NCBI GenBank assembly: GCA_937934305.1
Contig: CALHAG010000002.1
Coordinates: 142,192 to 206,191, forward strand
DNA from: Candidatus Caldarchaeum subterraneum
Lineage (GTDB): Archaea > Thermoproteota > Nitrososphaeria_A > Caldarchaeales > Caldarchaeaceae
Direction: 5' to 3'
Length of the DNA stretch: 64,000 bases
Every line of letters begins with the position of its first letter. Position 1 is the first letter of the stretch. Below are positions 1,096 to 14,870 of the stretch, piece by piece. The position numbers and the translations under genes are program-made. The notes under the pieces are model-generated. The model did no database searches and had not been told where the DNA came from. It was given only the letters and a program-made list of their open reading frames with translations.

Positions 1096-2916
1096 CTACA
1101 CCTGGCTTGGGAACAATGTGGCTCTCACCAGCTCGGACATCAGGGGGACAGAGTAGTAGGCGGGTATGAACAGGAACGCTGTGATGGCTACTCTATGTAG
1201 GCCGAATGGATGAGAGTCTATGGCGTAGCTGATGGTCAGCGCCATCGTCGATGCCGCTATAATCATCATCAGGAAGCCCATGTCTATCATCTGGGCTGCG
1301 AGCTCGGGGCTTGGGTTGAAGCTCGGCCCTCCCTGCGGAGCCTCGGGAAGCTCAAGGTTTGTGCCGCCGAACGCTGTGCCGGCTATGAGTGGATGAACCA
1401 TGCCGAACATCATCGAGGCTATGAATGGCGTGGCGTATGTCAGGTATAGGAAGAGCTTGGTTCTACCTCTCTGGGCTTCTCTGGCGGCGCTGTAGTATGT
1501 CAACGCTGTAATAACCTTCTCCATTAGCTGGGGGCTTGCTCCCCCCAGCCTGTCCACCATGTCTATGAGCCAGAGAATCACGCGGGTGAGCCAGCTACGC
1601 GCGGTGGAGGCTGCATGGTATATTCCGAGGCCCATTGTCAGCCTTGTGGAGAACCCTTTGACGAATGCTTGGAAGTGCCGGCTGTACCGCTGTGCCGCGG
1701 CGGTCTTCAGGCTATGATACATGGTTTTCCCGGCTTTTCTCTCCTCGACCGCTATCCTCACAAACCGTTTCAGCTCCCTCTCAGCCTCTTCTATCTCACC
1801 CACCTGATGGCGCATGGATGCGTAGACAAGGAGAGCCGTGACGCCTACTCCCGCCGCTATTATGACTGGATACGGAACCGGTATACCCGCTGCCTGAACC
1901 ACATAAGCAATGGCGGCTGAAGCCGCGGCAACGGATAAAGCCTTCGCCAAGGTGGCCGTGTCTAGGGATATTCTATTAGGTATCTTCGGCATAGCGTTCC
2001 TGACTGCTAGCAGTAACACGAGGCCGAGGAACGGTGTGATGAAGGTGTTTAGAAGCACCATTCCCTGCGTGGATTCTCCGCCGACTATCACGGTGAGGCT
2101 CATCCCCAGAGGCAGTAGAACAAGTGCGGTGAAGAGGATTTCGATATAGGCGGCTATTGATGACGTGAATCTTTCAAACTTCTCTGTCATGTATTTCAGC
2201 GCCTCTTCCGCGAGGTCCTCCAGCGTAGACACCATGTCCCCGCCTGTTCTCCAGACGCTTGTCGTCGTCAGCAGCGCCCGGCTGAACTCTTCATGCGGTA
2301 TGGTTTCGGCGTGGGCTTCCACGCTCTTGACCGCCCCCACCCCTGCGAAGACCGCTTTCCGCTCAATCTCTGCAGCCTCTTTGCTGACCTGCTTAAAGAC
2401 ATCCGTCGCTTTTTTGACATGCTGCAGCGCCATGTAGATGGTGCCGCCGCAGTAGGCGACTATGCTGCTGAAAACCATGAAGAAGGGATACTCGGTGGAG
2501 AGGGCTGTCTTCCTGTTTGAGGCTGAGTTCGAGGCGGATAGCATCGTCATGAATATTGGAGCTGCCGCGGGGCCGAAGCCCGCTAAAACAAGCGGGTTAA
2601 AGGAATGTGTAAATAGCGAGATAAGCGCCACGGCCGCAATAACCAATACTGAGGCAATGGATGCGCCTATCGCCGACGATATTTTCTCCGCGAGCTCGTA
2701 GGAGGATACACGCTTCATCGAGGCCCTGGCCACTTTAACCGCGTATCCCTCAAATCTTGCCGAGAATTTTTTGCCAAGTGATGAGCCGGCGAAAGCGGCG
2801 ACAGGCGCTGTGACCGCTCCCACCATCATCGGAATATTTCCAGAAAAGACGGCTAAAGGCCCTATTATCCCGGCTGAGAGTGCTGGGATGATGGACATGA
2901 CTGTGCCGTCCTGCAT
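1096..2916 (-). CDS. Type IV pilus/archaellum-type assembly platform membrane protein (FlaJ/TadC/GspF-like, polytopic)
   Basis: 606 aa with multiple hydrophobic helices separated by charged cytoplasmic domains. Its start overlaps the stop of the upstream secretion ATPase (position 2916). Pairing a platform protein with a FlaI/PilB ATPase is the canonical type-IV-filament core. Confidence 0.6.
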   Translation of the reverse strand: MQDGTVMSIIPALSAGIIGPLAVFSGNIPMMVGAVTAPVAAFAGSSLGKKFSARFEGYAVKVARASMKRVSSYELAEKISSAIGASIASVLVIAAVALISLFTHSFNPLVLAGFGPAAAPIFMTMLSASNSASNRKTALSTEYPFFMVFSSIVAYCGGTIYMALQHVKKATDVFKQVSKEAAEIERKAVFAGVGAVKSVEAHAETIPHEEFSRALLTTTSVWRTGGDMVSTLEDLAEEALKYMTEKFERFTSSIAAYIEILFTALVLLPLGMSLTVIVGGESTQGMVLLNTFITPFLGLVLLLAVRNAMPKIPNRISLDTATLAKALSVAAASAAIAYVVQAAGIPVPYPVIIAAGVGVTALLVYASMRHQVGEIEEAERELKRFVRIAVEERKAGKTMYHSLKTAAAQRYSRHFQAFVKGFSTRLTMGLGIYHAASTARSWLTRVILWLIDMVDRLGGASPQLMEKVITALTYYSAAREAQRGRTKLFLYLTYATPFIASMMFGMVHPLIAGTAFGGTNLELPEAPQGGPSFNPSPELAAQMIDMGFLMMIIAASTMALTISYAIDSHPFGLHRVAITAFLFIPAYYSVPLMSELVRATLFPSQV

Positions 2917-4754
2917 CAGGCGACACCCGCCACTGTGTAGTAGCGCTGTTTGAGGAATTCGTGGTACTCGAGCGCGTCTGATATGTTTTTCTCGATTCCT
3001 TCGACGATTACCGCCGCCTTTCTCTCAATATCGGCTATTATCTTCTCCTCGGATGCCCCGAATCTATCGACCAGGATGTTGAGTTTAGCGCTCTTCTTGA
3101 AAGCTTCCTCGGGGCTGTCGGGTTCGAACGTGTCTGACGACTCCCTCCATCTAAACACCTGATGAATCCTGAAGCCGGTGGCTGAACTGTCTGGAACTAT
3201 CTCCGCTATCTCCATCATGCGCCTCAGCCTGCCGTTGGGTGTGTCGGTGTAGGACATTATGCCGCAGCCCCAGAAGAAGCTGAGCAGGCTCTCGCTGAGG
3301 TCGGCTTTTCTCAACATGATGGCGAGCCTGCTGAAGAAGGCTGAGGCGGAGTCGGCGTGGAACGTGAACCCTCCGCCATGGCCTGTGAAGGCGGCGTTCA
3401 ATAGATGGTATATCGCGTCCTCGCTTCTCACCTCGCCTACCACGATGTAGTCAGGCCTCATACGTAGAGCCATTTTTATCAGCTCGGCTTCTGTGACCTG
3501 CACTTCTCTAGCGGTCATCATGCTCGGCCTCTTCACGGTCATGGCTCTCCAGCCGCGGGCGGGCAGGTAGAGCTCGTACGTGTCCTCGATGGTGTAGAAC
3601 ATGCTGTTGGGGTGGAGGCATGCAAGCAATGCGTTGAAGAGGCTTGTCTTACCGCTTCCCGTGGGGCCGGCCAGCCCGACGATAGCCTTCTGCTCTAGAG
3701 CATACCATAGATAAGCAGCCATTAACGGCGATAGCACCCCGCTTTTGACCATATGTGGCAGGCTCCATGGCATGACGGCGAATTTTCTGATGGTGAATCC
3801 CGGGCCTCTAGCGGCTATGTCTCTGCCGAATATGCCTGCGAACCTGTCTCCGCTCGGTAAAGCGAAGTCGCCGTATGGCTTTGCGACTGTTAGCCCGTGC
3901 CCAACCGCGTGTGCGAGCTTGTTCATGAAGTCGTTTACTTCGTCGTCGTCTCTGAAGTAGGCGTTTGACCATAGCCAGCGGTAGTGGCTGAAGCTTCTAT
4001 GGTAGACCCCGATGTATAATCCCGGGCCTATGCAGTTGATGTCCTCGATTTCAGGGTCCTCGACCATGATGTTTAGCACACCGTATCCGAAAAGCTCTCT
4101 CGCGATGTAGTATGTGACCTTCGTCCTTGTCTCGTCGTTGTCTATCCCAAGTGTTTTGAGCGCTGAGCGTATATGGGGTTCGAGGGCTTGGCTCAGGTTT
4201 ATGCTGGCTTTCTTGACGACGACATCTGTTCTATGGCTTCTTTTTGAAAGCGTCGTGACAACGTCTTCGGGGATTTCAGCCTTCATGTAGATGTTCTCGA
4301 GGGCCATGCTGTATCCCAGTATATCCTCCGGCTCCAGCTCAGGCTCTGAGACGAAGTATCTGCCTGTCATCCCCTCGGCGGCTATCCTTATGCTGGCGAG
4401 GCCTATCCTGTAGCTCTTCAACGTGACCCCTGTCCCAGGGTCTCTTAGGACAAGCGGTATCCTGGCGGCTGAGGAGAGGAACCTCTCCAGTAGCTTGAGG
4501 CGTTCCTGAGCCTTGGCCAGTATCTTCTCCTCTTTCTTGTCGAGCTGCTTGGCTGGTAGCCTGATGACCGGTGGCGGAGCCGCGGGCTCCTTGTCCGCCT
4601 TATCCTGTTTACGTGTCTTCTTTGCCTCAGGCTCTATTGCTTCTACTGTTTTCGTTTTCAGCGACTCTCCGCAGTTGGGGCAATGTAGTAGCTGTATCCC
4701 TTCTTCCTCTATGATGGGGGGCAGTTTTTCGCCGCATGCTGGGCACTTATCCAC
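2916..4754 (-). CDS. Type II/IV secretion-family ATPase (FlaI/PilB/VirB11 family) with an N-terminal C4 zinc ribbon and a Lys/Glu-rich linker
   Basis: Walker A is GLAGPTGSGKTSLFNALL. Walker B-like is PDYIVVGEVRSEDA. The N-terminus carries CPACGEKL...CPNCGESL. The gene sits next to the platform gene and the pilin genes. Confidence 0.8.
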   Translation of the reverse strand: MDKCPACGEKLPPIIEEEGIQLLHCPNCGESLKTKTVEAIEPEAKKTRKQDKADKEPAAPPPVIRLPAKQLDKKEEKILAKAQERLKLLERFLSSAARIPLVLRDPGTGVTLKSYRIGLASIRIAAEGMTGRYFVSEPELEPEDILGYSMALENIYMKAEIPEDVVTTLSKRSHRTDVVVKKASINLSQALEPHIRSALKTLGIDNDETRTKVTYYIARELFGYGVLNIMVEDPEIEDINCIGPGLYIGVYHRSFSHYRWLWSNAYFRDDDEVNDFMNKLAHAVGHGLTVAKPYGDFALPSGDRFAGIFGRDIAARGPGFTIRKFAVMPWSLPHMVKSGVLSPLMAAYLWYALEQKAIVGLAGPTGSGKTSLFNALLACLHPNSMFYTIEDTYELYLPARGWRAMTVKRPSMMTAREVQVTEAELIKMALRMRPDYIVVGEVRSEDAIYHLLNAAFTGHGGGFTFHADSASAFFSRLAIMLRKADLSESLLSFFWGCGIMSYTDTPNGRLRRMMEIAEIVPDSSATGFRIHQVFRWRESSDTFEPDSPEEAFKKSAKLNILVDRFGASEEKIIADIERKAAVIVEGIEKNISDALEYHEFLKQRYYTVAGVA

Positions 4755-5460
4755 CCTGCTCCACCTCCCCAGCCGCTTCCTCTATCGACCAGGCCCCTCC
4801 ATATGGCACTACGCCGCTTACCTGTACGTCTTGTATGTGTCGGCCTTCTGAGTCAAGTATCTTGAATTGTAGGGTTATTTTGCCTACGTCTCTCATCCAG
4901 TTGACGAAGCTGTATAGGTCTGTGACGGGTACTATGACTGTGACGCTTGCTTCGAAGTTATTCGGCCTGATAACTATCCTGCCCTGTGAATCGGTTGGAA
5001 AACCATCCAATATCTCGGCTGACGTGGCTAGCCCAGGGGTCAGCACTATTACTTTTTCTCTAGGCGAGATGTAGCTGTTCTGTGTCCCAAGCTCTGTGAA
5101 CTTGACGATTATTGTCACGGATTTTTCGTTTGGCGGCGGGCATCCTTTAGGGATGTTGAGTGTCTCGTTTTCCTGTGGGGGCCCGCCTTTTATTCCGCAT
5201 GTATAGATGGCATAGGCGGAGAAGGGGGCTGGCTGATTGGTTTTCTGGACAGTTGTCGCCGCTATGGACACGGTTTGTGTTATGGTTTGTCCCTGGATGA
5301 CTGTTATTGTTTGAGAGGGTTTGGAGGCCGCTGGACTCGCTAGATATCCTAGGATAAATCCTGTTAGGAGGAAGACTGCTGCCGTGGCCGCCGCCGTCTT
5401 GAGATTTTTAGGACCAATACCGCCGCGGAACATGCCGCGGCTATGAAAACTATCGTCCAT
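4747..5460 (-). CDS. Membrane-anchored hypothetical protein in the pilus operon
   Basis: N-terminal hydrophobic segment KTAAATAAVFLLTGFILGYLA followed by a Thr/Gln-rich extracellular region. The ORF overlaps the upstream 914-aa gene by ~97 nt, so the true start is uncertain. Confidence 0.35.
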   Translation of the reverse strand: MDDSFHSRGMFRGGIGPKNLKTAAATAAVFLLTGFILGYLASPAASKPSQTITVIQGQTITQTVSIAATTVQKTNQPAPFSAYAIYTCGIKGGPPQENETLNIPKGCPPPNEKSVTIIVKFTELGTQNSYISPREKVIVLTPGLATSAEILDGFPTDSQGRIVIRPNNFEASVTVIVPVTDLYSFVNWMRDVGKITLQFKILDSEGRHIQDVQVSGVVPYGGAWSIEEAAGEVEQGG

Positions 5461-8108
5461 GTAGATAAAGGAATAACTATGGTTGCTTCTGTGGCGTCGG
5501 CTGCTAGGGCTGTCTCCCCTCCTCCCAATGGGCTTGAAGCCTTTATTGTTGTTTCGGTGGGGGGTGCCGCCGGCAGCTTGGCTTGGCCGTCATAGGCTGT
5601 GGTGGCCCTGATGTCGGGGTATATCCACGCCTCTGTGAAGGGCGCGGGAATGCCTAGCACGTCTACGGCCTTTATCCTCACCGTTTTCAGCCCTGTCCTG
5701 AGCCTGTATTCTCCCGGCCCCTGTATAGATACTGTCTGTTCTACGTTGACCTCTGCTTCACGGTACCTTATGGAGACGGTTCTCCATGTTCCGCTGTCTA
5801 TGTATGCCATGGGTGGGGTGTATACTCTCGTTTCCCCGCCTCCTTCGAGGACCACGTTGTCAGGCTCGGCCAGGTATCCTTCGCCAGCCTCCAAGGCCAT
5901 TGATACAAGGTACTGGGGCAGGTATTCTACGCGGATATGCATCGGCTTGCTGACCGTTATCAGCCACGACCCTGTCCTAGCCCCGTCCACGTAGACGGCT
6001 TTAAGCGCCAGCCTAGTGGCGTTCCCCAGCTCAACGGTCTCGGGAAGCCATCGCCTAACATCTATCGATGAGCCGTTCTCAACCCTCTCCTCAAAGCTCT
6101 TGACAACGCTATCTACACGTATTGTCTGGAGTATTCTCCACTCAACCTTGACAGTGGCTGGCTGTGTCAAGGTATACTTCACCATAGCCATGTTCCCCCG
6201 GCTTAGGGACTGGTTCCACGTGGCTAGGACAGCCCCGTCCTGACCATATACGGTCATGTTCCTCAGCTCCACCACTGTCCCGTTCCCGAACTCCTGAACA
6301 ATGGGCATGAGGGTGTAGAGGGTCTCATTGGCTGTGAAGTACTTCTCCTCACTCAGGATATACCTGCTCTCTATCCTCACCTTGTGCTGCCTCTCCCAGA
6401 TGGGCTTGAGGGTCAGCGGCTTGTCCACAACTATCTCGGTTCCGTTGTATCCCTCGAACCCCTTGAAAACAAGCCTTGTACCGTTTCCAAGGTCAACTAC
6501 ATCCTTCTCCGGATGTATCTGCACCGTTGAGCCCTTGTCAACCCAGACGCTCTTGAACAATCCGCTGTATAGGCCCTCAACCCTTACGAGGTACTGAGGC
6601 TTCCAAAGCCTGTCCACAAGGTTCATAGGCGATGTGACGTTCACCACAGCATCCTGCCCGCGCCAAACCATTCTCACATCCTCGGATAACTGGAAGGATT
6701 CAGCCGCCGGCGCGAGCTTCACGACACTTTTCCTCAGAGCCCATACGTGTTTGCCGTCGTGGTAAGCCCAGCCTGACACGGCTTCTACCTTGACAGGGCC
6801 AGCCTCAAGCCTATACGCCCTCTCAAACCTAAGCTCAGCCAAGAGCCTGTCCTTGAGGCTCTCGAAGCATAGGCTCTGACCATTCATGGTCAAGGCTGTG
6901 AAGTTATCCCAGCCGGGGCCTATGCCGTCGTAAATAAGTATACGGTATACATTGGATTCGTTGATGTAGGGCATGACGTACTTCAGCAGCTTTTTAGGCA
7001 CTAAGGTGTAAGTGTAGTAAGTCTGCGATGAGCCGCCTACTCTGGTGACCTCCTCGGTCAACGTAACCCTCTGAACATCGTATGAGTGGAGAACGAGCCT
7101 AGTCCCGTTACCATAGTCAGATACAAACGGGAGATTTTCGCCAGACTTATCCTTGAAAGGCTTGATACATAGCGTCTCGCGGTAAATACCTTCGGTGACG
7201 GTGATGGGTGCGATGGGATAGGATAGACTAATCCAACCCTCCCCCTCGTCAAAGACGTTGTAGTGATACACCCATACCTCACCCGGCATGCTTATAACAG
7301 TGAGGTTGCTGGGCGGGCTGAGCCAGCCGCCGCCAAACTTCAGCACATCGTCGGCGGAGGCGTTTCTTAGTGAGCTAAACCTAACAGCCAATGCGTAGAG
7401 AACAAATGTATCTGGTGGACCAAATATTGGATAAGGTCGCCAAGCGTCGCCGGGATACCAGCCGCCTATTCTGAACCCTCTCCAGTCAAAACCATATTGA
7501 TAGCTTCGTGGGTATCCATCGTTATGGCCGAGGCCTATGGCGTGGCCAAACTCATGAGATAAAAACGCAAGGTTGCCTAAAACCTTCACATATGGTTCCT
7601 CGAGAGTCGCAGAGATTGTGCAAGCACCGTTCCCGCAACGACGTGTGGGGTCTATAATTATGTCGGGTGTAGGTATTGTTTCGTTTACACCTTCTATGTA
7701 GAATTTGAACCTTATTTTTGGGAGGTGTCTAGCCCATTCATAGTGTTCTGCGGCGTATTGTAACGCGGCTTGCCACGTTCTAACCACCCTCGATGCAAAC
7801 AACACATGCTCCCAGCCATACTCTGTTTGGATGACCTTAATCCTACTATAATCAAGATACTCTATGGTGGTTCCGGGCCTGTACTTGAGCAGTATGTTGT
7901 ATGTGTATCCTCCGTCCTCCTCCACGGTCTGCCTCGGGTTCCACCACTGGTTTATGGGGAAAACCTCTATTCTCTGCGTCAGCCTATCTCCTTTGAAGTC
8001 GTTGACCCATGTCACCTCCCAGCCCGGGTACTGGAACTCTTCACCATGTATGGGCAGGAGGACAAACAGTATGCAGACGGTTGCAAGCGCTGCTAACGCA
8101 GCCCTCAT
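5364..8108 (-). CDS. Large secreted, C-terminally anchored surface protein with a metzincin-type zinc-metalloprotease motif
   Basis: N-terminal signal MRAALAALATVCILFVLLPIHG. LSHEFGHAIGLGHND matches the metzincin HExxHxxGxxH(D/N) zinc-binding consensus. The C-terminus is a hydrophobic helix followed by an RRRRPRQQ tail. Confidence 0.6.
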   Translation of the reverse strand: MRAALAALATVCILFVLLPIHGEEFQYPGWEVTWVNDFKGDRLTQRIEVFPINQWWNPRQTVEEDGGYTYNILLKYRPGTTIEYLDYSRIKVIQTEYGWEHVLFASRVVRTWQAALQYAAEHYEWARHLPKIRFKFYIEGVNETIPTPDIIIDPTRRCGNGACTISATLEEPYVKVLGNLAFLSHEFGHAIGLGHNDGYPRSYQYGFDWRGFRIGGWYPGDAWRPYPIFGPPDTFVLYALAVRFSSLRNASADDVLKFGGGWLSPPSNLTVISMPGEVWVYHYNVFDEGEGWISLSYPIAPITVTEGIYRETLCIKPFKDKSGENLPFVSDYGNGTRLVLHSYDVQRVTLTEEVTRVGGSSQTYYTYTLVPKKLLKYVMPYINESNVYRILIYDGIGPGWDNFTALTMNGQSLCFESLKDRLLAELRFERAYRLEAGPVKVEAVSGWAYHDGKHVWALRKSVVKLAPAAESFQLSEDVRMVWRGQDAVVNVTSPMNLVDRLWKPQYLVRVEGLYSGLFKSVWVDKGSTVQIHPEKDVVDLGNGTRLVFKGFEGYNGTEIVVDKPLTLKPIWERQHKVRIESRYILSEEKYFTANETLYTLMPIVQEFGNGTVVELRNMTVYGQDGAVLATWNQSLSRGNMAMVKYTLTQPATVKVEWRILQTIRVDSVVKSFEERVENGSSIDVRRWLPETVELGNATRLALKAVYVDGARTGSWLITVSKPMHIRVEYLPQYLVSMALEAGEGYLAEPDNVVLEGGGETRVYTPPMAYIDSGTWRTVSIRYREAEVNVEQTVSIQGPGEYRLRTGLKTVRIKAVDVLGIPAPFTEAWIYPDIRATTAYDGQAKLPAAPPTETTIKASSPLGGGETALAADATEATIVIPLSTWTIVFIAAACSAAVLVLKISRRRRPRQQSSS

Positions 8109-8172
8109 ACCTTGGACACATTATTCGCAGGAATATAAACGGAGAAGGCCTGAAAAAATGTATGGGTGTTTA

Positions 8173-10125
8173 TTAAAGGTCGCAGTCTGTGATTATTGTT
8201 GCACCCGGTGGAACATTGCATGTTATGGTGTTCCCGTTCTTGCTACATTGATACACTTCGTTCTTGCTATATGTCCCGGCTCCGGGCGCCACAAAGGCGT
8301 TGCATTTGCCTGGATTGCTTGTGCCAAAGGAGACGGATATGGAGTTCGGCGGCGGGCTATCGCATGGCACGTTTACTCCTAAGCCGCTGTTGGTCCATAC
8401 TTGGGTTCCTACGTCGCTGCTCTCGCATATGCCGACGACGTAGCTCTTCATGCATGGGGGCGAGCTGGGCGGCGGTGGCGGCGGTGGCAGCCGTTCAATT
8501 GTTCTGTCGTAGGTGTATACTGCTACTATGCCTAATGGGCGGTCTGCGTAAACCCTCAGCGTGCCGTTGGTGGAGTAGGCTACGATGTTGGTGGTGTTCC
8601 AGAGGTCTACGACCGCCACGTAAGCCAGCTTGTGGATGGCTGTTGAAAAGTAAGATGTTTCGACTAAGTAGTAGCTATAATAATTTCTCTCTACATAAAA
8701 CCGACTGTGCCACTCAAGTGTGGTCGGAAAACTCACCTCCCCATAGTACCTACGGGGCTGGGAGAGGTATGTGTACTGGACGTATACATCGACCGTGTTG
8801 CCTGAAACAACTGTATACGTAACCGTGAGCGGACTCCCGTTGTCGAGGGGGATGCTCACGTCCTGAGAGAGTGTTACCGAAGAGCTTCTGGAATTAGCAT
8901 CACTTATCGTCAGACTGACCGGGCTGGTGATGCCTCCATTAATGAGCCAATAATAACAATAACCACCCCATGAGTAGGAGCAGCTTGAGCTGGTGATTTT
9001 GACTGTTATTTTCCTGACTGTTATTGGGTAGCGGTCCGCGGGGAAGGTTATGTCCACGCTGCCTGCTCCGGTTAAGCCTGTTACCGATGCGGTGTCTGTA
9101 AGCGTATCTTGTACCAGATTGTCCATGTTCCGTAGGCTGTTTTCAGGGAAGAAGTACTCCTGCCCACCTACCGGGATAGCTCCTCTACCTCCATATCCAT
9201 TACATACACTTACCGTTTCATAGTTTACAGCCACGAATCGTGGGCCATAGTCAGAGGATGGTGTAGGGCGCCATATCGAAAACGGAGTATATGGGTCACT
9301 CCACGCTCTTCTATCGCATGGATCCCAATAACTTACCGACCCCTGTCTGTAGCCCTTTTTATATGTCATGGTGAACTGGGGTATCTTTATGACGGATGAG
9401 TCGGTGACGTTCACTATTCTATTGCTGGGGTCTTTGGCCTGTAGACCGGGTAGCAGACCCCACGACGGGAATGTAACGTCTTCTCTATACGCTCCTCTCG
9501 GGTAGGCTACGCCGGTGTATACTTTGATGGGCCAGTGGCTCGGGTTGTCTATTATGACTGTCGCCGTCCAACTGGTCAATGTTTGTGTGGTCTCGACCAC
9601 TGTTAGCGACTCGGTGGATGTTACCTGCGAGGTCAGAGTTGTTCTGCTGGTTTCATAGGCCGCCACCTCCACCACCGGCGGCGCGAGGTACCTGCTGCCG
9701 TACACTCTTCCCCTGAATGTTTTGAAGTAGGCTGCTGATAATGAGCTATAGGTGTCATCATATGTTCTGTATTCTTCTCCCGCTAATGTGGCGAAGGGCA
9801 TTGTCCTATACTGCTGTGGGCTAAGCTTCAACGTCTCGTTGAGCTTAACAGCCTTCACGACGCCGCCGGCCCTGTCGACAAGCACTATATCGGTTACCTC
9901 GAGCGCCACCTTGCCCGCGTTCCTCAGCGTAAGCAGCGTGTTGTTGGTTGACACGTCGCGGTAAACATAGGCGTGAAGCAGCTCAGACGACGCCTCAGCC
10001 TCTAGAGCAGACTCCCTAAGCTCAGCCGCCTTCACCGCGTAGACGTTTAGATACGTCAGCGACGCCGCCGAGAACCCGGCCAGCAGCACCAGAACCGTGA
10101 GCAAAGCGCTAACCGACGAGTTCAC
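8173..10125 (-). CDS. Large secreted protein with a poly-Pro linker and a C-terminal Cys-rich module (putative adhesin/tip protein)
   Basis: N-terminal hydrophobic leader MNSSVSALLTVLVLLAGFSAAS. Contains PPPPPPPSSPP. The last ~100 aa carry 8 Cys, suggesting a disulfide-knot-like domain. It is embedded between pilin-like genes. Confidence 0.5.
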   Translation of the reverse strand: MNSSVSALLTVLVLLAGFSAASLTYLNVYAVKAAELRESALEAEASSELLHAYVYRDVSTNNTLLTLRNAGKVALEVTDIVLVDRAGGVVKAVKLNETLKLSPQQYRTMPFATLAGEEYRTYDDTYSSLSAAYFKTFRGRVYGSRYLAPPVVEVAAYETSRTTLTSQVTSTESLTVVETTQTLTSWTATVIIDNPSHWPIKVYTGVAYPRGAYREDVTFPSWGLLPGLQAKDPSNRIVNVTDSSVIKIPQFTMTYKKGYRQGSVSYWDPCDRRAWSDPYTPFSIWRPTPSSDYGPRFVAVNYETVSVCNGYGGRGAIPVGGQEYFFPENSLRNMDNLVQDTLTDTASVTGLTGAGSVDITFPADRYPITVRKITVKITSSSCSYSWGGYCYYWLINGGITSPVSLTISDANSRSSSVTLSQDVSIPLDNGSPLTVTYTVVSGNTVDVYVQYTYLSQPRRYYGEVSFPTTLEWHSRFYVERNYYSYYLVETSYFSTAIHKLAYVAVVDLWNTTNIVAYSTNGTLRVYADRPLGIVAVYTYDRTIERLPPPPPPPSSPPCMKSYVVGICESSDVGTQVWTNSGLGVNVPCDSPPPNSISVSFGTSNPGKCNAFVAPGAGTYSKNEVYQCSKNGNTITCNVPPGATIITDCDL

Positions 10126-10131
10126 ACACCA

Positions 10132-11988
10132 TCACCATGGAAGGCAATACACCAAATACTTGACAATGACGCCGAATCCCACACCGGAGCCGCCTCCTCC
10201 GCCAGAGCTGCCTCCACCATCTCCGCCGCTCGATCCTCCGCCAGTCACAGGTACCGTAACAGAAACAGCCGTCACATCACATGTAGGAGGGGGGTTAAAC
10301 GTGCAGCTCTGACCGGGACCGCAGGAGCTGGTCGGGCCCATGTACACCCCTGACGGAGCGGGGGGCGATGGCGTGTAGATGTTGCATTCGACCTTGTCCA
10401 CGTAGTAGTACCTGTGAATTGTGTAGCTGTTCTCGGTGACTTGGAAGTGGTTGACGTAGACCGGGTTCTCCGGGCCGACTGTATAGGTTGGCAGGGCTGA
10501 TATCCGGGCCTGCCAAGCGTACCATGCGCGGTCTCCATAGGCGGTGGTGACGGGTGCTGTTCGTGTTGTCACCACCATATTGACCGGGTGGTGGGGATTG
10601 TCTCCCGGCCTGACGAACCTCGTCCCACTGTATAGGAGGGCGGCGGTGAAGGTTCCACGGTAATAGTTGTTGAATGTGAGTGCTGGGCCTGCCGGGTACA
10701 CACGAGTCCCGTATAATGTTGTGACATATTGCCTCCCCCATTCATCCCAGTCTGTTCTCACTGCTGTTGGCCATGTATATGTGGTTGGATAATGCGTCAT
10801 GGACACGTATTCTCCCTGCCGCATGTACGTGGCCGTGGGTGTGGGGTAGTTGGGCGGGGCGGGCTGTACATCTACTCTCCGCAGACTATACACCGCTGTG
10901 CATAATGAGTTGATTGCGGCTATGTTTATCGACACGATTAGGGACCTTGGCGCGTTTATGTTGGTGTAGTAGGTGCCTCTCTCCACGTAGACGGTTTTCG
11001 TGTCATCCGATGCGTCGGCCCAGCCGCCGGCAGGCTGCCAAGCCCATAGCAGGTAGTACCACCCGTTATAACCCCACGGCGGGACCTCCCACTGGACGTT
11101 TATGGCGTTTCTCCAGTCGGGTAATGGTGCTGACGGTGAGCCGTCCTCGGGGAGTCCTGTCACCGAGGCTGAGTAGTAGATGCCTCCTCCTGCAGGCAGC
11201 CCCCTCGCCAGTATGTTGATTTTCTCGAAGTGGTTTACGGCCCGTATGGTTGAGTAGGTTATAGGCGCTGGAGGGTTGAGGGTTATGGTCCTGTTCACGT
11301 AGAAGGTGTTGTTTATAGTGGTGAAGGATGGTACCTGCCATACTTCTGTGGTTGTGTAGTTGTATGTGGTTACGGTGGTTGCGCCTACTAGGTTGTCTTC
11401 GCGCGGGTAGCCCCATGTGCTGCCGAAGCTGTTGCCGGCGTCGGTGTATGCTATCAACGCCGCCATGTTGCCTGCGAGCTGTCGGAAGCTTGTGAAGCTG
11501 AGCCCTAGCTGCTCCGGGCTAAGCGTAACCTTTGTGCCCGGCGGAACAATTATCTGCCTGCTTATCTCTATGACTTGCCTGTTTTGGCTGGGCTGCGGCC
11601 TGTACACCGCCAGTAGCTTGGTTATGTTTGTCGGGAAGCCCCATGCGTTGACTATCGTTATTCTCGGTGGGCTGTTGATGTCTGAAGAGTTTTCGGCGTG
11701 GATGTATATGCGTATAAGCTCCTGGTCCTTGGCCGCCTGCCTCCTCAGCTCCTCCATCATCTGCCTGTTCTGGGCCGAGTACGTGTTTGAGACATAGGTT
11801 GTTGCGAGCACTCCTGCTGTGACTACAGCCATCACCATTATGGCCGCTATTACGCCGGATAACCCGGATGAGCTTTTCCTTTTCAAGGCATCAGAGAGAA
11901 AAAGAGCTGATGCATATAAGGCGATAAACCTCCCCGACCAATCTTGGTCAGGGAGGGGCATACACAGCTTCAACAAAATAATGGTCAT
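10132..11988 (-). CDS. Large pilin-like protein (class III signal peptide) with a Gly/Ser-rich C-terminal tail
   Basis: N-terminus KRKSSSG|LSGVIAAIMVMAVVTAGVL matches the archaeal prepilin (PibD) cleavage pattern G|[LIV]S shared by five neighbours. 618 aa with C-terminal GGGSSGGDGGGSSGGGGGSG. Confidence 0.55.
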   Translation of the reverse strand: MTIILLKLCMPLPDQDWSGRFIALYASALFLSDALKRKSSSGLSGVIAAIMVMAVVTAGVLATTYVSNTYSAQNRQMMEELRRQAAKDQELIRIYIHAENSSDINSPPRITIVNAWGFPTNITKLLAVYRPQPSQNRQVIEISRQIIVPPGTKVTLSPEQLGLSFTSFRQLAGNMAALIAYTDAGNSFGSTWGYPREDNLVGATTVTTYNYTTTEVWQVPSFTTINNTFYVNRTITLNPPAPITYSTIRAVNHFEKINILARGLPAGGGIYYSASVTGLPEDGSPSAPLPDWRNAINVQWEVPPWGYNGWYYLLWAWQPAGGWADASDDTKTVYVERGTYYTNINAPRSLIVSINIAAINSLCTAVYSLRRVDVQPAPPNYPTPTATYMRQGEYVSMTHYPTTYTWPTAVRTDWDEWGRQYVTTLYGTRVYPAGPALTFNNYYRGTFTAALLYSGTRFVRPGDNPHHPVNMVVTTRTAPVTTAYGDRAWYAWQARISALPTYTVGPENPVYVNHFQVTENSYTIHRYYYVDKVECNIYTPSPPAPSGVYMGPTSSCGPGQSCTFNPPPTCDVTAVSVTVPVTGGGSSGGDGGGSSGGGGGSGVGFGVIVKYLVYCLPW

Positions 11989-12745
11989 CCATTAACAGGT
12001 TGAGCGGGTTTAAGCCATATGTAACCGTGTCCCTGTAGCCTGTGAAGCTCACCTCCCAGTGCTTGAAAACATACTGCGTGTTACCTATCGTTATCGCCGG
12101 CTCCGCCTCTATACGGGCTATCTCATAGGGTGAGTAGTTGCGGTTTCCGGGAGGCGGGTTAACGGCTGACGAGCATGAGCCGCACACCTGCCTGCCAGAA
12201 CCGGTTTCCAGCAAAACCCTTATGTTGACCGTGTATACACCGGGTCTTTCAGGCGGGTCGCGCCCACATGGATAAACCTCGTCAGGCTCGACCCAGCTCC
12301 TCTGATAGGCTTTACCCACTGCGCCGCTGGAGAAGTGGATGACTATGCTCGTGTTGGCGTAGCCGTTGATAGACCTCGGCAGCCCCAGCCTCTCCAGCCT
12401 GATTATCCTACAGGCTCCGGCGTCGAATACCTCGTTTATTCTAGCCGACGTGACAGAGCCCATCCGGTCAACTAGGATATCGAGCAATGTGTCGCCCTCG
12501 CCGCTGTCTTCATGGATTAGGAGATATGCTTTCGGACTCCAGCCGGGAGGTATCCCCGGCATCAATGTGGCTCTCACCTCATGCTTGCCTCTGTCATATA
12601 ATTCCTCCAAGTTTCTCCTCGCCGTGAAAGTGTTTGAGAAGGCTGAGACAGAGAGATAGGCGGCTACGGTGGTCATCATGACTATGGCGAGGGCGAAGAC
12701 TATCACAGACGCTGAGGATACTCCCCGCCTCCTCATCTTGTCCAC
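11948..12745 (-). CDS. Type IV pilin-like protein (class III signal peptide)
   Basis: MDKMRRRG|VSSASVIVFALAIVMM. 265 aa. Confidence 0.55.
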   Translation of the reverse strand: MDKMRRRGVSSASVIVFALAIVMMTTVAAYLSVSAFSNTFTARRNLEELYDRGKHEVRATLMPGIPPGWSPKAYLLIHEDSGEGDTLLDILVDRMGSVTSARINEVFDAGACRIIRLERLGLPRSINGYANTSIVIHFSSGAVGKAYQRSWVEPDEVYPCGRDPPERPGVYTVNIRVLLETGSGRQVCGSCSSAVNPPPGNRNYSPYEIARIEAEPAITIGNTQYVFKHWEVSFTGYRDTVTYGLNPLNLLMDDHYFVEAVYAPP

Positions 12746-13134
12746 TCCTTTGTCAGGACATGAAGCGCTCCGGAAGATGTTTTAACAGCTAATGCCGAGC
12801 CGCTGGGTAGGCTGAAGACCTGCATCTGTCTAGGCGCTAATGTGGCGTTCCCCGACCATGCAAGGTTGGCGTCCACATATATCTGGATAACCGTGACAGG
12901 GTCTGGGCCGTCGTTAGCTATCCATGCTCTGCCGTCGCTGGCCCAGTAGACAAGCGTGAGCCTCTCAGATATCTTGACAGCCTGGTTTCCCGACTCTTTC
13001 TCAAAACCTGCCACGGCGGCGGATGTGTTTCTAGCGTATATTCCATAGGCAGCCAGGGCCACGGCTAATGCGACCAGCAGAGCCGCCGCCGCTGCCGCTG
13101 CCTCGCTTATCCCACTGCGGCTACGGTGAACCAT
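12733..13134 (-). CDS. Type IV pilin-like protein (class III signal peptide)
   Basis: MVHRSRSG|ISEAAAAAAALLVALAVALAA. 133 aa. Confidence 0.6.
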   Translation of the reverse strand: MVHRSRSGISEAAAAAAALLVALAVALAAYGIYARNTSAAVAGFEKESGNQAVKISERLTLVYWASDGRAWIANDGPDPVTVIQIYVDANLAWSGNATLAPRQMQVFSLPSGSALAVKTSSGALHVLTKEWTR

Positions 13135-13547
13135 GCTGAAGCACCCTCCACGGTCCTAACAGTTAGATAATATTTCTCGCCGAGGGTAACCGGTGCACAG
13201 CGATACGTGAACTCAACCGATTCAGATGGCTTCACATTGGTGGAGCCTCTCACATGCGTAAGCGTGCATACAGGGTTTCCCGCTCCCTGTATAGATAGAC
13301 CGGAATAGGTAACGGGCTCGGAGCCCTTGTTCGTCACCGAGAAGGTGAGGAGATAGCTGCTCCCCAATGCTCTGACGAGCTGGGCCGAGGAGATGGATAT
13401 GCTGTATGACTTGGAATGGGGGCCTAGCCAGCCGGAGGCCAGAGAGCCCACGAGGATTACAAGCGCGACACTCACTATAGCGAGCACCGCGACGGTTGCC
13501 GCGGGTGATAAACCCGAGACAACGCGTTGAGCCAAGCACATCACCAA
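13107..13547 (-). CDS. Type IV pilin-like protein (class III signal peptide)
   Basis: QRVVSG|LSPAATVAVLAIVSVALVIL. 146 aa. Confidence 0.6.
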   Translation of the reverse strand: MVMCLAQRVVSGLSPAATVAVLAIVSVALVILVGSLASGWLGPHSKSYSISISSAQLVRALGSSYLLTFSVTNKGSEPVTYSGLSIQGAGNPVCTLTHVRGSTNVKPSESVEFTYRCAPVTLGEKYYLTVRTVEGASAWFTVAAVG

Positions 13548-13563
13548 AAAAGGTGAGGAGGTT

Positions 13564-14034
13564 TTAGGTTACTGGAACAGAGCGCTGGTGGCTTGTGCTT
13601 CCCCCCGGGATGTTGCCGCTCACCCTGATGGTCAGCATGTCGCCGCGCCCTATGCCGGACGCCGCTGCACAGCCGCTCGCCGAGCCGCTGGAGCCCGGGT
13701 TAAGAGAGGCTGGGAAACCGCTCAATGGCACCGCTACAGGAGCGGTTTGAGCGGTTATGCTGGTGACAGGGCTTCCGCCGGTGTTCTTCACCTGCACCGT
13801 TACGCAGAGCTGCTGGCTTCCCAGCGGGCCCACCAAAGCCGCAGAGACATCTTCTATGATTATGCCTTCTTTTCTAGCCCATCCGCCAAGCTGGCCTCCC
13901 ACAATGCTTCCCACAAGGAGGGCGAGCGATACACCGACTATCACGAGAATCAGCACCACAACCGTCTCGCTTAGCCCCTTGCGGCTAAGGTTCTTGGATT
14001 TTCCAAAAAAATGAAGAGGGTTTTTAGCGGCCAT
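13564..14034 (-). CDS. Type IV pilin (class III signal peptide)
   Basis: LSRKG|LSETVVVLILVIVGVSLALLVGS is a textbook archaeal prepilin N-terminus. 156 aa. Confidence 0.7.
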   Translation of the reverse strand: MAAKNPLHFFGKSKNLSRKGLSETVVVLILVIVGVSLALLVGSIVGGQLGGWARKEGIIIEDVSAALVGPLGSQQLCVTVQVKNTGGSPVTSITAQTAPVAVPLSGFPASLNPGSSGSASGCAAASGIGRGDMLTIRVSGNIPGGSTSHQRSVPVT

Positions 14035-14050
14035 GGTTTCTCATCCCCGT

Positions 14051-14500
14051 TTAGGTGTGGGCTACCCCGGTCTTGGTGTCGCTTACTGTCTGTCCGTTGG
14101 GCGCGGTGCACTGAACCCTGAAAGTGTAGACATCGCCGAGAACCGTGCCCGCTACGTTGTCCGCGGTGAATGTCTGGCTTCTGCCAGCGGCTATGTCCTG
14201 GCTAGTCGGGTCGAATATAGCGCCTGGGAGGTTGATTGCGGTTACTTGGCAACCAGTTAGAACTGAGCCTCCTGCATTGCGCACATCTACTGTGATGAAG
14301 CCGTTGCCGTTTGTGTCAACTAGGATGTCCACCTTCTCTATGCTGACTTTTGGCGCGGCACCCCATCCGAAGAGGAAGCCGCCGGCGATGCTGGCTGCTA
14401 CAAGGGCTAGGGCTACGCCGACCACTAGGAGGATTAAGGCGAGGATGGGCCCGCTGAGCGCCTTGTTGTCGGGTTTCTTCACAAGGTTTTTCACTTTCAT
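14051..14500 (-). CDS. Type IV pilin (class III signal peptide), first gene of the pilus operon
   Basis: KKPDNKA|LSGPILALILLVVGVALALVAASIAGG. 149 aa. Confidence 0.65.
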   Translation of the reverse strand: MKVKNLVKKPDNKALSGPILALILLVVGVALALVAASIAGGFLFGWGAAPKVSIEKVDILVDTNGNGFITVDVRNAGGSVLTGCQVTAINLPGAIFDPTSQDIAAGRSQTFTADNVAGTVLGDVYTFRVQCTAPNGQTVSDTKTGVAHT

Positions 14501-14584: not shown

Positions 14585-14870
14585 GTGAAGCTCAGACAAT
14601 GTTTATCAAGCCTATACGATATGTTGTGGTTAGAGCAGGCATGTATGGCTGCCCATATATGGTCAAACCCTATTCCCAGAAAGCCGAAATTTTGGCGAAT
14701 TAGGCCCGATTATCTGGTGACCGAAAATACCCGAAAAGTATTACCGCTTTTTGACCATATATGGTCAACCTGCCTCCGTAGAAGCGGGAAATTTCCGGGA
14801 ATTAGACCCAATTTCTTCCTGACCGAAATTATTCAAATCGTCATACCGGTTATTTGATTATATGCAGAGT
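14585..14870. repeat. Two tandem copies of a composite intergenic repeat unit (palindrome TTGACCATATATGGTCAA + GAAATTTYCGGGMATTAG box + GACCGAAAATACYCGAAAAGTATTAC hairpin box)
   Basis: Perfect 18-bp palindrome at 14749-14766 and a partial one at 14654-14666. The same unit recurs at 22262-22535, 36588-36720 (inverted), 56366-56440 and 56636-56760. Confidence 0.7.

What the first reader, a model, noticed from the sequence alone, without database searches (positions are those of the whole stretch)
5364..8108. Metzincin zinc-protease motif (HEFGHAIGLGHND) in a 914-aa surface protein inside the pilus operon
The HExxHxxGxxH spacing with a following Asp is the catalytic zinc site of metzincins. Here it lies ~230 aa from the N-terminus of a secreted, C-terminally anchored protein.

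The gene sits between the pilin genes and the secretion ATPase. A protease co-transcribed with a pilus could process pilins or adhesins, or be displayed on the filament or cell surface to degrade proteinaceous substrates.
Basis: seen in the sequence. Interest (0 to 1): 0.65.

Follow-up and report, generated by a model that had tools for sequence, protein, structure and literature searches.

The report
Pilus-operon zinc protease lacking Met-turn methionine
This hot-spring archaeon gene encodes a membrane-anchored surface zinc protease related to matrix metalloproteinases; it is a conserved part of a type IV pilus operon and has lost the methionine that gives metzincins their name.

Summary
ORF 5364-8108 (-) encodes a 914-aa protein with HEFGHAIGLGHND, but at residues 185-197, not ~230. 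It has a Sec-type signal peptide, a C-terminal membrane anchor with an RRRR tail, and 15 N-glycosylation sequons where 3.6 are expected. The organism is a Candidatus Caldarchaeum MAG, and public records call the protein hypothetical.

The window's clade has a conserved D-W-R-G-aromatic insert. The Met position is hypervariable (W/V/D/I/E/T/K/H/R/A), and residues 2-273 of this protein contain no Met.

The gene order is pilins, two giant pilin-like proteins, protease, 237-aa membrane protein, FlaI-like ATPase, UpsF-like platform. It is kept in many metagenomic loci down to 33-43% protease identity. A more distant lineage that keeps the Met (37% ATPase identity) keeps the core: giant pilin-like protein, protease, small membrane proteins, ATPase. 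Canonical relatives are not linked to pilus genes.

One stand-alone homolog has lost the zinc motif.

Verdict: a real, probably active protease, a new variant of a known kind. Its substrate is unknown.

The parts
5364..8108 (-). Whole gene: 914-aa surface-anchored matrixin-like zinc metallopeptidase. Public records call it a hypothetical protein of Candidatus Caldarchaeum sp.
   Evidence: ORF and translation. Identical protein in NCBI and UniRef. dN/dS 0.16 against the 82%-identical ortholog.
8043..8108 (-). Sec-type signal peptide, aa 1-22 (MRAALAALATVCILFVLLPIHG)
   Evidence: Kyte-Doolittle peak over aa 1-25. It does not look like a class III prepilin signal, which has a short charged leader followed by G/A then L/I-S. 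This is read from the sequence; no signal-peptide predictor was available.
7329..7931 (-). Catalytic domain, about aa 60-260: beta-sheet, helix A, active-site helix B, helix C
7524..7556 (-). Zinc-binding and catalytic motif H185-E186-F-G-H189-A-I-G192-L-G-H195
   Evidence: Invariant in 19/19 motif-bearing clade members.
7452..7523 (-). Clade-specific insert (aa 196-219) with conserved D208-W-R210-G211-F212, ending in W217-Y218-P219. W217 occupies the Met-turn methionine position.
   Evidence: Alignments A1, A2 and A4. hhalign register. Position 217 is W/V/D/I/E/T/K/H/R/A across the clade. AF2 confidence here is low, pLDDT 54-65.
7368..7418 (-). C-terminal helix of the catalytic domain (PPDTFVLYALAVRFSSL), matching 'PSTLDLYALAVAYSWL' of canonical relatives
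   Evidence: Alignment A4. Helix at model residues 212-227, pLDDT 91-94.
5709..7151 (-). Stalk of about 480 aa of beta-rich repeats carrying four G-N-G/A-T-x-hydrophobic-x-hydrophobic motifs (aa 333, 541, 608, 695). Probably divergent InlB B-repeat-like (Flg_new_2-like) domains.
   Evidence: Profile positions 447-895 match more than 1000 proteins, mostly large multi-repeat surface proteins. Relatives P0035 and P0058 hit PF18998. The window protein itself has no Pfam hit. Motif positions.
5529..5696 (-). Probable carboxypeptidase-regulatory-like (prealbumin-fold) domain, aa 805-860
   Evidence: Relative P0040 hits PF13620 at E 6e-9. One clade member hits weakly, E 0.047. The assignment to this segment rests on the sequence pattern V.V.D..G.P...A......T..DG and is an inference.
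5403..5462 (-). C-terminal transmembrane anchor, aa 883-902
   Evidence: Hydropathy peak over aa 874-904.
5367..5402 (-). Short Arg-rich cytoplasmic tail SRRRRPRQQSSS. By the positive-inside rule the bulk of the protein is outside the cell.
   Evidence: The topology is an inference.
8132..8139 (-). TATA-like TTTATATT centred about 27 nt upstream of the ATG, in the 64-nt gap after the upstream gene. Possible internal promoter giving a leaderless mRNA.
   Evidence: Sequence only, not tested.
8173..10125 (-). p650: giant pilin-like protein with an N-terminal hydrophobic helix, a poly-Pro linker and a Cys-rich C-terminal module. It is the neighbour most consistently found directly upstream of the protease.
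   Evidence: Homolog directly upstream of the protease in L002, L005, L016, L018, L020, L021, L023-25, L027, L029, L031, L033 and L036. No PDB or Pfam match.
10132..11988 (-). p618: second giant pilin-like protein (…SSG|LSGVIAAIMVMAVV…)
   Evidence: Conserved in L002, L016, L018, L023, L027 and L029.
11948..14500 (-). Five small pilin-like genes with class-III-signal-like N-termini: 11948-12745, 12733-13134, 13107-13547, 13564-14034, 14051-14500
   Evidence: Weak UpsA, BasC and Pilin_N matches for 14051-14500. Conserved order in L002, L016 and L018.
4747..5460 (-). p237: single-pass membrane protein of unknown function, found directly downstream of the protease in most loci with enough flank. 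Its ORF overlaps the protease 3' end by 97 nt.
   Evidence: Homologs downstream of the protease in 18 loci, including the stand-alone L004.
2916..4754 (-). FlaI/BasE-like T2SSE secretion ATPase with an N-terminal zinc ribbon
   Evidence: PF00437 at E 2e-25. NCBIfam FlaI 5.9e-71 and BasE 3.4e-59.
1096..2916 (-). UpsF/BasF-like polytopic platform protein (T2SSF)
   Evidence: NCBIfam UpsF 1.7e-47. PF00482 at 6e-6.

Best explanation
The gene encodes an extracellular, N-glycosylated zinc endopeptidase of a Caldarchaeum archaeon. A C-terminal membrane helix tethers it to the cell, and about 600 residues of beta-sandwich repeats hold the catalytic domain away from the membrane.

The catalytic domain descends from an archaeal matrixin-like (MEROPS M10-like) metzincin family and should use the standard zincin chemistry. 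His185, His189 and His195 would bind zinc, and Glu186 would act as general base on the zinc-bound water.

The domain differs from all classical metzincins in one respect. The Met-turn methionine has been lost: it is Trp217 here and hypervariable in the clade. A conserved D-W-R-G-aromatic insert lies between the third His and the Y-P of the former Met-turn. I infer that this insert, or its aromatic residues, took over the hydrophobic support under the zinc site.

The gene is a long-conserved accessory component of a Ups/Bas-like type IV pilus operon. It is always next to a giant pilin-like protein (p650) and usually followed by a small membrane protein (p237) and the assembly ATPase.

The most likely role is proteolysis at the cell surface in the service of this pilus machine. 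That could be maturation or trimming of the giant pilin-like or adhesin proteins, or local clearing of the surface layer where the filament emerges.

Shown: the motif and its conservation, the homology, the topology features, the synteny, the Met loss and purifying selection. Inferred: catalytic activity, the role of the insert, and the substrate.

The confidence of 0.6 is for the statement as a whole. Taken separately, I put about 0.85-0.9 on the identity (a metzincin-derived zinc peptidase linked to the pilus operon) and about 0.35-0.4 on the pilus-service role.
For: - Motif and conservation.
- Homology to matrixins:
  - Relatives P0006, P0019, P0034 and P0035 pass PF00413.
  - An N-domain profile search finds proteins that NCBI calls 'matrixin family metalloprotease'.
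  - The family profile hits MMP-14, MMP-9, MMP-12, MMP-3 and karilysin at E 3e-10 to 3e-9, with collinear N-terminal strand, helix A, motif and Met-turn segments.
  - hhalign of the clade against canonical relatives gives 99.15% probability, E 3.9e-19.
- Extracellular location: signal peptide, C-terminal TM segment, RRRR tail, and 15 of 30 Asn in N-x-S/T sequons against 3.6 expected.
- Met loss: no Met in aa 2-273. The aligned position is hypervariable.
  - P0031 keeps both the insert and the Met, so it is an evolutionary intermediate.
- Operon: ATPase, platform and pilin assignments.
- Synteny:
  - Kept at 33-43% protease identity in L016, L018, L023, L025-27 and L030-32.
  - Kept in the distant L036 lineage, where the ATPase is 37% identical.
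  - Nine loci of canonical-Met relatives have no pilus genes in up to 10 kb of flank on each side.
- Purifying selection: dN/dS 0.16 for the whole gene and 0.24 for the catalytic domain.
- Precedents in the literature:
  - Surface peptidases of another family are linked to archaeal T4P loci (PMC4858521).
  - An M23 metallopeptidase is needed for gonococcal piliation (PMC3735123).
  - MMP-2 tolerates Met-to-Leu or Ser replacement (cited in PMC1266349).
  - A zincin family replaced the Met-turn with an aromatic residue (PMC3890501).
Against: - No Pfam, NCBIfam or PDB sequence model reaches significance on this protein alone.
- Foldseek finds no match at E<=0.001. The best are fragilysin at 0.03 and MT1-MMP at 0.06.
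- The segment that should show how the zinc site is supported (aa 199-228) is modelled with low confidence, so the replacement role of the insert is conjecture.
- The literature describes the Met as invariant in metzincins (PMC1266349). Some Met replacements in serralysin compromise kinetics, so activity could be reduced.
- One clade member (L028) has lost the whole zinc motif but stays an intact 958-aa ORF. The scaffold therefore has some value without catalysis.
- Some loci (L004, L017, L019, L022, L028) carry the gene without adjacent pilus genes.
- A TATA-like element in front of the gene weakens the co-transcription argument.
- No substrate evidence of any kind.
Confidence: 0.6

Rival explanations
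1. It is a nutritional or scavenging exoprotease. The enzyme digests environmental proteins for a peptide-using heterotroph, and its place in the pilus operon reflects co-regulation with an adhesive filament that holds the cell on proteinaceous substrates. It does not act on pilus components.
For: - Canonical relatives of the same family are stand-alone genes among housekeeping genes, which fits a general surface protease.
- Caldarchaeales genomes are reported to carry many peptide transporters and some extracellular peptidases (PMC10547907).
- The long stalk puts the active site far from the membrane.
- Loci L004 and L017 keep the gene, with p237, but without pilus genes.
Against: - The adjacency p650, protease, p237, ATPase is kept from 82% down to about 20-28% protease identity and 37% ATPase identity. 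That is more than co-regulation usually preserves.
- The pilus-linked clade has its own derived catalytic-domain features (insert, Met loss, N-terminal EDGGYT extension). These suggest specialisation away from the general enzyme.
Confidence: 0.22
2. It is mainly a structural or adhesive component of the pilus machine. The matrixin-like domain would serve as a binding module and catalysis would be dispensable or lost, making it a pseudoenzyme or one on the way to becoming so.
For: - The defining Met is lost.
- The L028 homolog has replaced HELGHALGLGH by FTLAFALGWGG while the other 950 residues stay conserved and open.
- P0032 has Gly to Lys in the motif, and P0029 has the third His replaced by Asp.
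- Two thirds of the protein is non-catalytic repeat stalk, shared with many large surface proteins.
Against: - In the window protein and 19/19 non-redundant motif-bearing clade members, all three His, the Glu and the Gly are intact despite 60-65% overall divergence.
- His-to-Asp at the third ligand is a known functional variant (Asp-zincins, PMC3890501).
- The one degenerate copy (L028) has no detectable pilus-gene neighbours in its short flanks (1-1.6 kb), so it may be a decaying paralog.
- dN/dS in the catalytic domain is 0.24.
Confidence: 0.13
3. The motif is a chance HExxH-type match in an unrelated surface protein, and there is no protease.
For: No curated family model hits this protein above threshold. 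Foldseek is not significant.
Against: - Profile and HMM-HMM homology to matrixins.
- The motif is invariant.
- The flanking elements are collinear: the W in helix A, the D-I/V strand, and helix C with Y-A-L.
Confidence: 0.02

Closest known systems
Matrixins (MEROPS M10A, Pfam PF00413): vertebrate MMP catalytic domains and bacterial karilysin
   Same: - HExxHxxGxxH zinc motif on the active-site helix.
- Collinear N-terminal strand, helix A with a conserved Trp, a 'D-I/V-x-I/V' strand, Y-P after the Met position, and a C-terminal helix.
- The family profile matches MMP-14, MMP-9, MMP-12, MMP-3 and karilysin at E 3e-10 to 3e-9.
   Different: - No Met-turn methionine: Trp217.
- An insert of about 17-20 aa with D-W-R-G-aromatic after the third His.
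- Asn instead of Ser after the third His.
- No cysteine-switch propeptide: no Cys between aa 13 and 157.
- PF00413 does not score this protein.
- The C-terminal architecture is InlB-B-repeat-like domains plus a TM anchor, not hemopexin.
Archaeal 'matrixin family metalloprotease' surface proteins of Caldarchaeales and Nitrososphaerota with a canonical Met-turn (P0006, P0028, P0034, P0035; loci L001, L007-L013)
   Same: - Same overall architecture: signal peptide, N-terminal matrixin-like domain, about 600 aa of repeats with G-N-x-T-R-x-x-F-x-G-W/F motifs, and a C-terminal TM segment.
- Homologous over the full length: E 1e-20, E 3.9e-19 by hhalign.
   Different: - They keep 'D-L-M-Y-P' and lack the DWRG insert and the N-terminal EDGGYT extension.
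- They pass PF00413.
- They are stand-alone genes with no pilus genes in up to 10 kb of flank on each side.
Transglutaminase-family surface peptidases linked to euryarchaeal type IV pilus loci (arCOG02164, arCOG09555, arCOG03450; Makarova, Koonin and Albers 2016, PMC4858521)
   Same: They are surface peptidases consistently encoded in archaeal T4P gene neighbourhoods. Their role is unknown, and the authors suggest processing or degradation of pilins.
   Different: They belong to a different catalytic class and fold (cysteine peptidase-like transglutaminase), to different archaeal lineages and to a different T4P clade. That survey does not mention metallopeptidases or Aigarchaeota.
Neisseria gonorrhoeae NGO1686/Mpg, an M23B zinc metallopeptidase required for full piliation (PMC3735123)
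   Same: It is a zinc metallopeptidase whose activity supports type IV pilus elaboration, acting on the cell envelope (peptidoglycan) and not on prepilin signal peptides.
   Different: It is an unrelated family (M23, LAS fold), it is bacterial and periplasmic, and, from my own knowledge and not checked here, it is not encoded in the pilus operon.
Minizincin family of Acel_2062 (PMC3890501)
   Same: It is a zincin lineage inferred to have lost the Met-turn, with an aromatic residue (Tyr113) occupying the methionine's place under the zinc site.
   Different: It is a tiny single-domain protein whose third ligand is Asp and which has almost no sequence after the motif. It is not a matrixin relative and not pilus-linked.

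Membership tests
Metzincin clan (MEROPS MA(M)) | Extended zinc-binding consensus HExxHxxGxxH/D | tested here: met
   HEFGHAIGLGH at aa 185-195. Invariant in 19/19 motif-bearing clade sequences.
Metzincin clan (MEROPS MA(M)) | Met-turn: a conserved methionine in a 1,4-beta-turn beneath the zinc site | tested here: not met
   - The position aligned with Met of 'LMYP' is Trp217.
- It is W/V/D/I/E/T/K/H/R/A in the clade.
- There is no Met anywhere in aa 2-273.
- Whether the turn geometry persists cannot be judged, because the model has pLDDT 54-65 there.
Metzincin clan (MEROPS MA(M)) | Catalytic-domain fold: upper subdomain with a five-stranded sheet and helices A and B, lower subdomain with helix C | tested here: inconclusive
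- Against: Foldseek is not significant.
- Caveat: the MSA included canonical relatives.
Metzincin clan (MEROPS MA(M)) | Zinc-dependent endopeptidase activity | not testable with these tools
   Needs biochemistry.
Matrixin family (M10A, PF00413) | Scores above the Pfam gathering threshold for Peptidase_M10 | tested here: not met
   - No PF00413 hit for the window protein at E<=0.1.
- One of 10 clade members hits at E 0.017.
- Canonical relatives pass: P0034 36 bits, P0035 34 bits, P0006 30 bits, against a cutoff of 24.
Matrixin family (M10A, PF00413) | Demonstrable sequence homology to MMP catalytic domains | tested here: met
   - Family profile A4 against PDB sequences: MMP-14, MMP-9 and MMP-12 at E 3e-10, karilysin at 2.8e-9.
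- That profile includes canonical members. The clade is linked to them at hhalign probability 99.15%.
Matrixin family (M10A, PF00413) | Cysteine-switch propeptide (PRCGxPD), found in most MMPs | tested here: not met
   No Cys between aa 13 and 157. The Cys pair C158/C163 lies inside the catalytic domain and is conserved as a pair, probably a disulfide.
Archaeal type IV pilus-like system (Ups/Bas-like) gene cluster | [quoted passage not shown] | tested here: met
   - ATPase: PF00437 at 2e-25, FlaI at 5.9e-71.
- Platform: UpsF at 1.7e-47, PF00482 at 6e-6.
- Pilins: seven upstream ORFs have (K/R/S)(G/A)|(L/I/V)S-hydrophobic N-termini. Only one has weak UpsA/BasC/Pilin_N hits.
- No prepilin peptidase was looked for.
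Archaeal type IV pilus-like system (Ups/Bas-like) gene cluster | The protease gene is a conserved member of the cluster and not an incidental neighbour | tested here: met
   - The same order holds in more than 10 independent metagenomic loci at 33-43% protease identity and in L036 at about 20-30%.
- Exceptions are L004, L017, L019, L022 and L028.
Archaeal type IV pilin / pilin-like protein | Class III signal peptide with an N-terminal hydrophobic helix retained in the mature protein | tested here: not met
   The N-terminus looks like a cleavable Sec-type signal, and the anchor is C-terminal. The protease is therefore not itself a pilin.

The most novel reading that the evidence does not exclude
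The Met-less matrixin, the giant pilin-like proteins p650 and p618, and p237 form, with the ATPase and platform, a distinct archaeal type IV filament machine. Its purpose would be extracellular proteolysis or protein display: a 'proteolytic bindosome', or a functional analogue of bacterial type II secretion. In this reading the protease is the effector of the system and not a helper of an ordinary adhesive pilus. The conserved DWRG insert would be a new structural solution that replaces the otherwise universal Met-turn.
Probability: 0.12. Interest if true: 0.75.

Novelty: new variant of a known kind. Interest (0 to 1): 0.55.

Why it matters
- **A natural test of the Met-turn.** The literature describes the Met-turn methionine as absolutely conserved across metzincins, and its role has been debated from mutants. 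Here a natural clade keeps the zinc motif under purifying selection but lets the Met position drift freely after gaining a conserved insert. An intermediate (P0031) has both features. This is a ready-made evolutionary experiment on what the Met-turn is for, set in a thermophile.
- **A new accessory gene for archaeal pili.** Archaeal type IV pilus systems have many uncharacterised accessory genes. A metallopeptidase conserved at a fixed position in one such operon gives a concrete, testable candidate for post-export processing of pilus-associated proteins or for envelope remodelling.
- **Annotation.** The protein and its clade are annotated as hypothetical and escape Pfam, so the assignment is a useful annotation gain.

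Tried and rejected
- Direct Pfam and NCBIfam scans of the 914-aa protein gave nothing above threshold. The best was Peptidase_M57 at E 0.07.
- phmmer of aa 1-330 against PDB sequences gave only motif-level MMP-9 hits at E~0.5.
- The first AF2 run used 15 sequences including full-length relatives. It gave pLDDT 53 and was unusable past residue 195, so I replaced it with a trimmed 31-sequence alignment.
- Foldseek against the PDB gave no significant match. The afdb50 library was unavailable.
- The exact-sequence contig look-up for the window protein found nothing. The organism came from cluster members instead.
- Rfam found no RNA families in the window.
- PDB sequence searches of p650 and of the stalk region gave nothing.
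- I checked whether another Met could serve as the Met-turn. Met274 is the first internal Met and is not conserved (R, Q or E in relatives), so I rejected it.
- I considered a cysteine-switch prodomain and rejected it, because there is no suitable Cys.
- I considered that the protease might itself be a pilin-like substrate of the prepilin peptidase. I rejected this because the signal looks Sec-type and the anchor is C-terminal.
- Tallant et al. 2010 on the Met-turn is not in the held library.

Full report
**Observation.**
The minus-strand ORF 5364-8108 encodes 914 aa. It is the only HExxHxxGxxH among eight HExxH matches in the six-frame translation of the window.

The protein starts with a hydrophobic Sec-type signal (aa 1-22). 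It ends with a hydrophobic segment (about aa 883-902) followed by SRRRRPRQQSSS. Fifteen of its 30 Asn lie in N-x-S/T sequons, against 3.6 expected from composition. These features fit an N-glycosylated ectodomain tethered by a C-terminal anchor.

An identical or near-identical protein is deposited as 'hypothetical protein' from Candidatus Caldarchaeum sp. MAGs and as an uncharacterised Caldiarchaeum subterraneum protein in UniRef. The window therefore comes from a hot-spring Caldarchaeales (former Aigarchaeota) genome.

**Is it a protease domain?**
Direct scans fail. No Pfam or NCBIfam model passes threshold, and phmmer against PDB sequences gives only motif-level MMP-9 matches at E~0.5. Homologs settle the question.

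- A word-indexed search found six relatives. The most distant (P0006, 23% identity over the full length) carries PF00413 matrixin and a textbook 'HEFGHALGLDHTENSADLMYPY'.
- A profile of the N-terminal domains reached further proteins, which carry PF00413 and which NCBI names matrixin family metalloprotease.
- An exhaustive profile search of 1.8 billion representatives returned 1084 hits. Most match only the C-terminal repeats. Several dozen share the N-terminal domain, nearly all with HExxHxxGxxH followed by [DE][LIV]MY and 'PSTLDLYALAVAYSWL'.
- A 31-sequence N-domain profile hits solved MMP-14, MMP-9, MMP-12 and MMP-3 at E 3e-10 and karilysin at 2.8e-9. The matches are collinear in the first strand, helix A, the zinc motif and the Met-turn.
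- With that alignment AlphaFold2 gives pLDDT 77 and pTM 0.77, with a confident sheet, helices A and B, and a C-terminal helix.
- Foldseek is not significant, so the structural evidence is supportive but not strong. The sequence-profile evidence carries the assignment.

**The missing methionine.**
In the window protein and its closer relatives, the stretch after the third His differs from the canonical family. It contains an insert with conserved D208, R210, G211 and an aromatic at 212 ('DWRGF/W'). It ends in x-Y218-P219, where Y-P aligns with the Y-P of 'LMYP'.

An HMM-HMM alignment compared 19 non-redundant clade sequences with 37 canonical ones. It gave probability 99.15% and E 3.9e-19, and it puts position 217 opposite the Met. 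That position is W, V, D, I, E, T, K, H, R or A across the clade, so it is unconstrained.

The window protein has no Met at all between the initiator and residue 274, and Met274 is not conserved. The literature calls this Met 'absolutely conserved' and 'invariant in all metzincin proteases' (PMC1266349).

P0031 has the insert and still has the Met ('IDFRGNKFELMEY'). The likely order of events is therefore insert first, Met loss later.

In vitro, MMP-2 tolerates Leu or Ser at this position, while serralysin mutants are impaired (summarised in PMC1266349). A minizincin family is thought to have replaced the Met-turn with an aromatic side chain (PMC3890501). My inference is that the conserved insert does the same job here. 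The model is unreliable in exactly this segment (pLDDT 54-65), so this is untested.

**Is it still an enzyme?**
All three His, the Glu and the Gly are intact in 19/19 motif-bearing clade sequences at 33-43% overall identity. dN/dS against the 82%-identical ortholog is 0.16 overall and 0.24 in the catalytic domain.

There are variants:
- P0029 has Asp as third ligand, which is an Asp-zincin-type motif.
- P0032 has Lys for the motif Gly.
- One stand-alone homolog, L028, has replaced the whole motif ('LSFTLAFALGWGGA') while remaining an intact, otherwise conserved 958-aa ORF.

So catalysis is the rule, but the scaffold can persist without it.

**The rest of the protein.**
Residues ~320-800 contain four G-N-G/A-T-x-hydrophobic-x-hydrophobic motifs (the GNGTRL type). 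They are homologous to repeats in more than 1000 mostly large surface proteins. Relatives hit PF18998 (divergent InlB B-repeat) and PF13620 (CarboxypepD_reg), but the window protein itself does not. I describe this region as a stalk of beta-sandwich repeats. The domain names are inferred through homologs.

**Context.**
All genes from 14500 down to 1096 are on the minus strand, with gaps or overlaps of -97 to +64 nt. In order they are:
- five small proteins and two giant ones (618 and 650 aa) with class-III-signal-like N-termini;
- the protease;
- a 237-aa single-pass membrane protein;
- a FlaI/BasE-like ATPase with an N-terminal zinc ribbon;
- a UpsF/BasF-like platform protein.

This is an archaeal type IV pilus-like cluster of the Ups/Bas kind.

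**Synteny.**
I tested whether the protease belongs to the cluster by fetching related loci and searching them with all eleven window proteins.

- The full order recurs at 82% identity (L002, L003, L014, L015).
- It recurs at 33-43% identity in L016, L018, L023, L025, L026, L027, L030, L031 and L032.
- p650 lies directly upstream wherever enough flank exists (also L005, L020, L021, L024, L029, L033).
- The distant Met-retaining P0031 locus (L036) has a p650-like protein, the protease, two small membrane proteins, and an ATPase only 37% identical to the window's.
- Nine loci of canonical-Met relatives (L001, L007-L013, L035) show no pilus genes in up to 10 kb of flank on each side.
- The exceptions are as follows.
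  - L004 has the protease and p237, then unrelated genes.
  - L017, L019 and L022 lack pilin genes upstream; in L017 a type I restriction-modification island lies there.
  - L028 is the degenerate copy.

The linkage is therefore old and specific to this clade, but not obligatory.

A TATA-like TTTATATT centred about 27 nt before the ATG suggests the gene may also have its own promoter. Co-transcription is unproven.

**Mechanism.**
The parts shown here are an ectodomain with an intact, selected zincin site, a stalk and anchor, and fixed membership of a pilus cluster next to p650. From established zincin chemistry, Glu186 would polarise the zinc-bound water and His185, His189 and His195 would hold the metal.

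The role is inferred. I favour surface proteolysis serving the pilus machine. Candidate actions are:
- trimming the giant pilin-like proteins, both of which carry Pro-rich linkers before Cys-rich C-terminal modules;
- opening the surface layer where the filament exits.

There are two precedents. Makarova et al. noted transglutaminase-like surface peptidases linked to other archaeal T4P loci and suggested pilin processing (PMC4858521). The gonococcal M23 peptidase Mpg is needed for full piliation through envelope remodelling (PMC3735123).

The rivals are a nutritional exoprotease co-regulated with an adhesive pilus, and a mainly structural or adhesive protein. I cannot separate these without experiments.

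**Novelty and score.**
The fold, the chemistry and the idea of a pilus-linked peptidase are all known. Three things are new:
- a natural matrixin-derived clade without the Met-turn methionine, with an identifiable intermediate;
- its conserved place in a Caldarchaeales type IV pilus operon;
- the annotation itself, since Pfam misses the clade and the sources call it hypothetical.

I rate it a new variant of a known kind, with interest 0.55.

Noticed in passing
window 8132-8139 (- strand): TATA-like TTTATATT centred about 27 nt upstream of the protease ATG, in the only sizeable gap (64 nt) inside the gene cluster. It may be an internal promoter giving a leaderless transcript.
   Followed up: no
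window 14647-14667 and 14750-14770: Perfect palindrome TTGACCATATATGGTCAA (14751-14768), with a 90% matching second copy 82 nt away. Both lie in the divergent intergenic region between the first pilin gene and a zinc-ribbon membrane protein gene (14884-15405). They are candidate regulator binding sites for the pilus operon.
   Followed up: partly
window 5364-5460: The protease 3' end (TM anchor and RRRR tail) overlaps the start of the p237 ORF by 97 nt in another frame. tblastn similarity of p237 to the ortholog extends back to residue 1, so the overlap may be real and not a miscalled start.
   Followed up: partly
L028 875-3751: A stand-alone homolog (958 aa) in which the zinc motif is replaced by FTLAFALGWGG while the rest of the protein, including the DWRGW insert, is conserved. 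This is a natural pseudoprotease within the clade.
   Followed up: partly
P0029 aa 183-193; P0032 aa 162-172: Motif variants in relatives: HELGHALGIGD (third His replaced by Asp) and HEIGHSFKLGH (Gly replaced by Lys). Neither has the Met-turn Met.
   Followed up: no
L017 241-9661: In L017 the pilin genes upstream of the protease are replaced by a type I restriction-modification island (HsdS-like, AAA ATPase, HsdR-like, DUF45-like). In L019 and L022 the pilin genes are likewise absent upstream.
   Followed up: partly
window 17036-20182 and 28328-29959: Two low-GC patches (0.45-0.49 against about 0.55) carry defence genes: an Eco57I/MmeI-like N6-methyltransferase fusion (1048 aa) and a GmrSD-like endonuclease. 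They are probably acquired islands.
   Followed up: partly
window 16230-16763 (-): A 177-aa polytopic membrane protein with HELGH and a weak Peptidase_M50 (site-2 protease) match. It is the second HExxH protein near the operon.
   Followed up: no
window 24613-27114 (-) and 21092-21679 (-): An 833-aa surface protein with two CarboxypepD_reg domains plus Y_Y_Y and Big_3_5 matches, and a CHRD-domain protein. A CHRD protein also lies next to the pilin genes in the orthologous locus L002.
   Followed up: no
window 8173-10125 and 10132-11988 (-): Both giant pilin-like proteins end in Cys-rich modules preceded by Pro-rich or Gly/Ser-rich linkers (PPPPPPPSSPP; GGGSSGGDGGGSSGGGGGSG). The middle of p650 is variable between loci, while its N- and C-termini are conserved.
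   Followed up: partly
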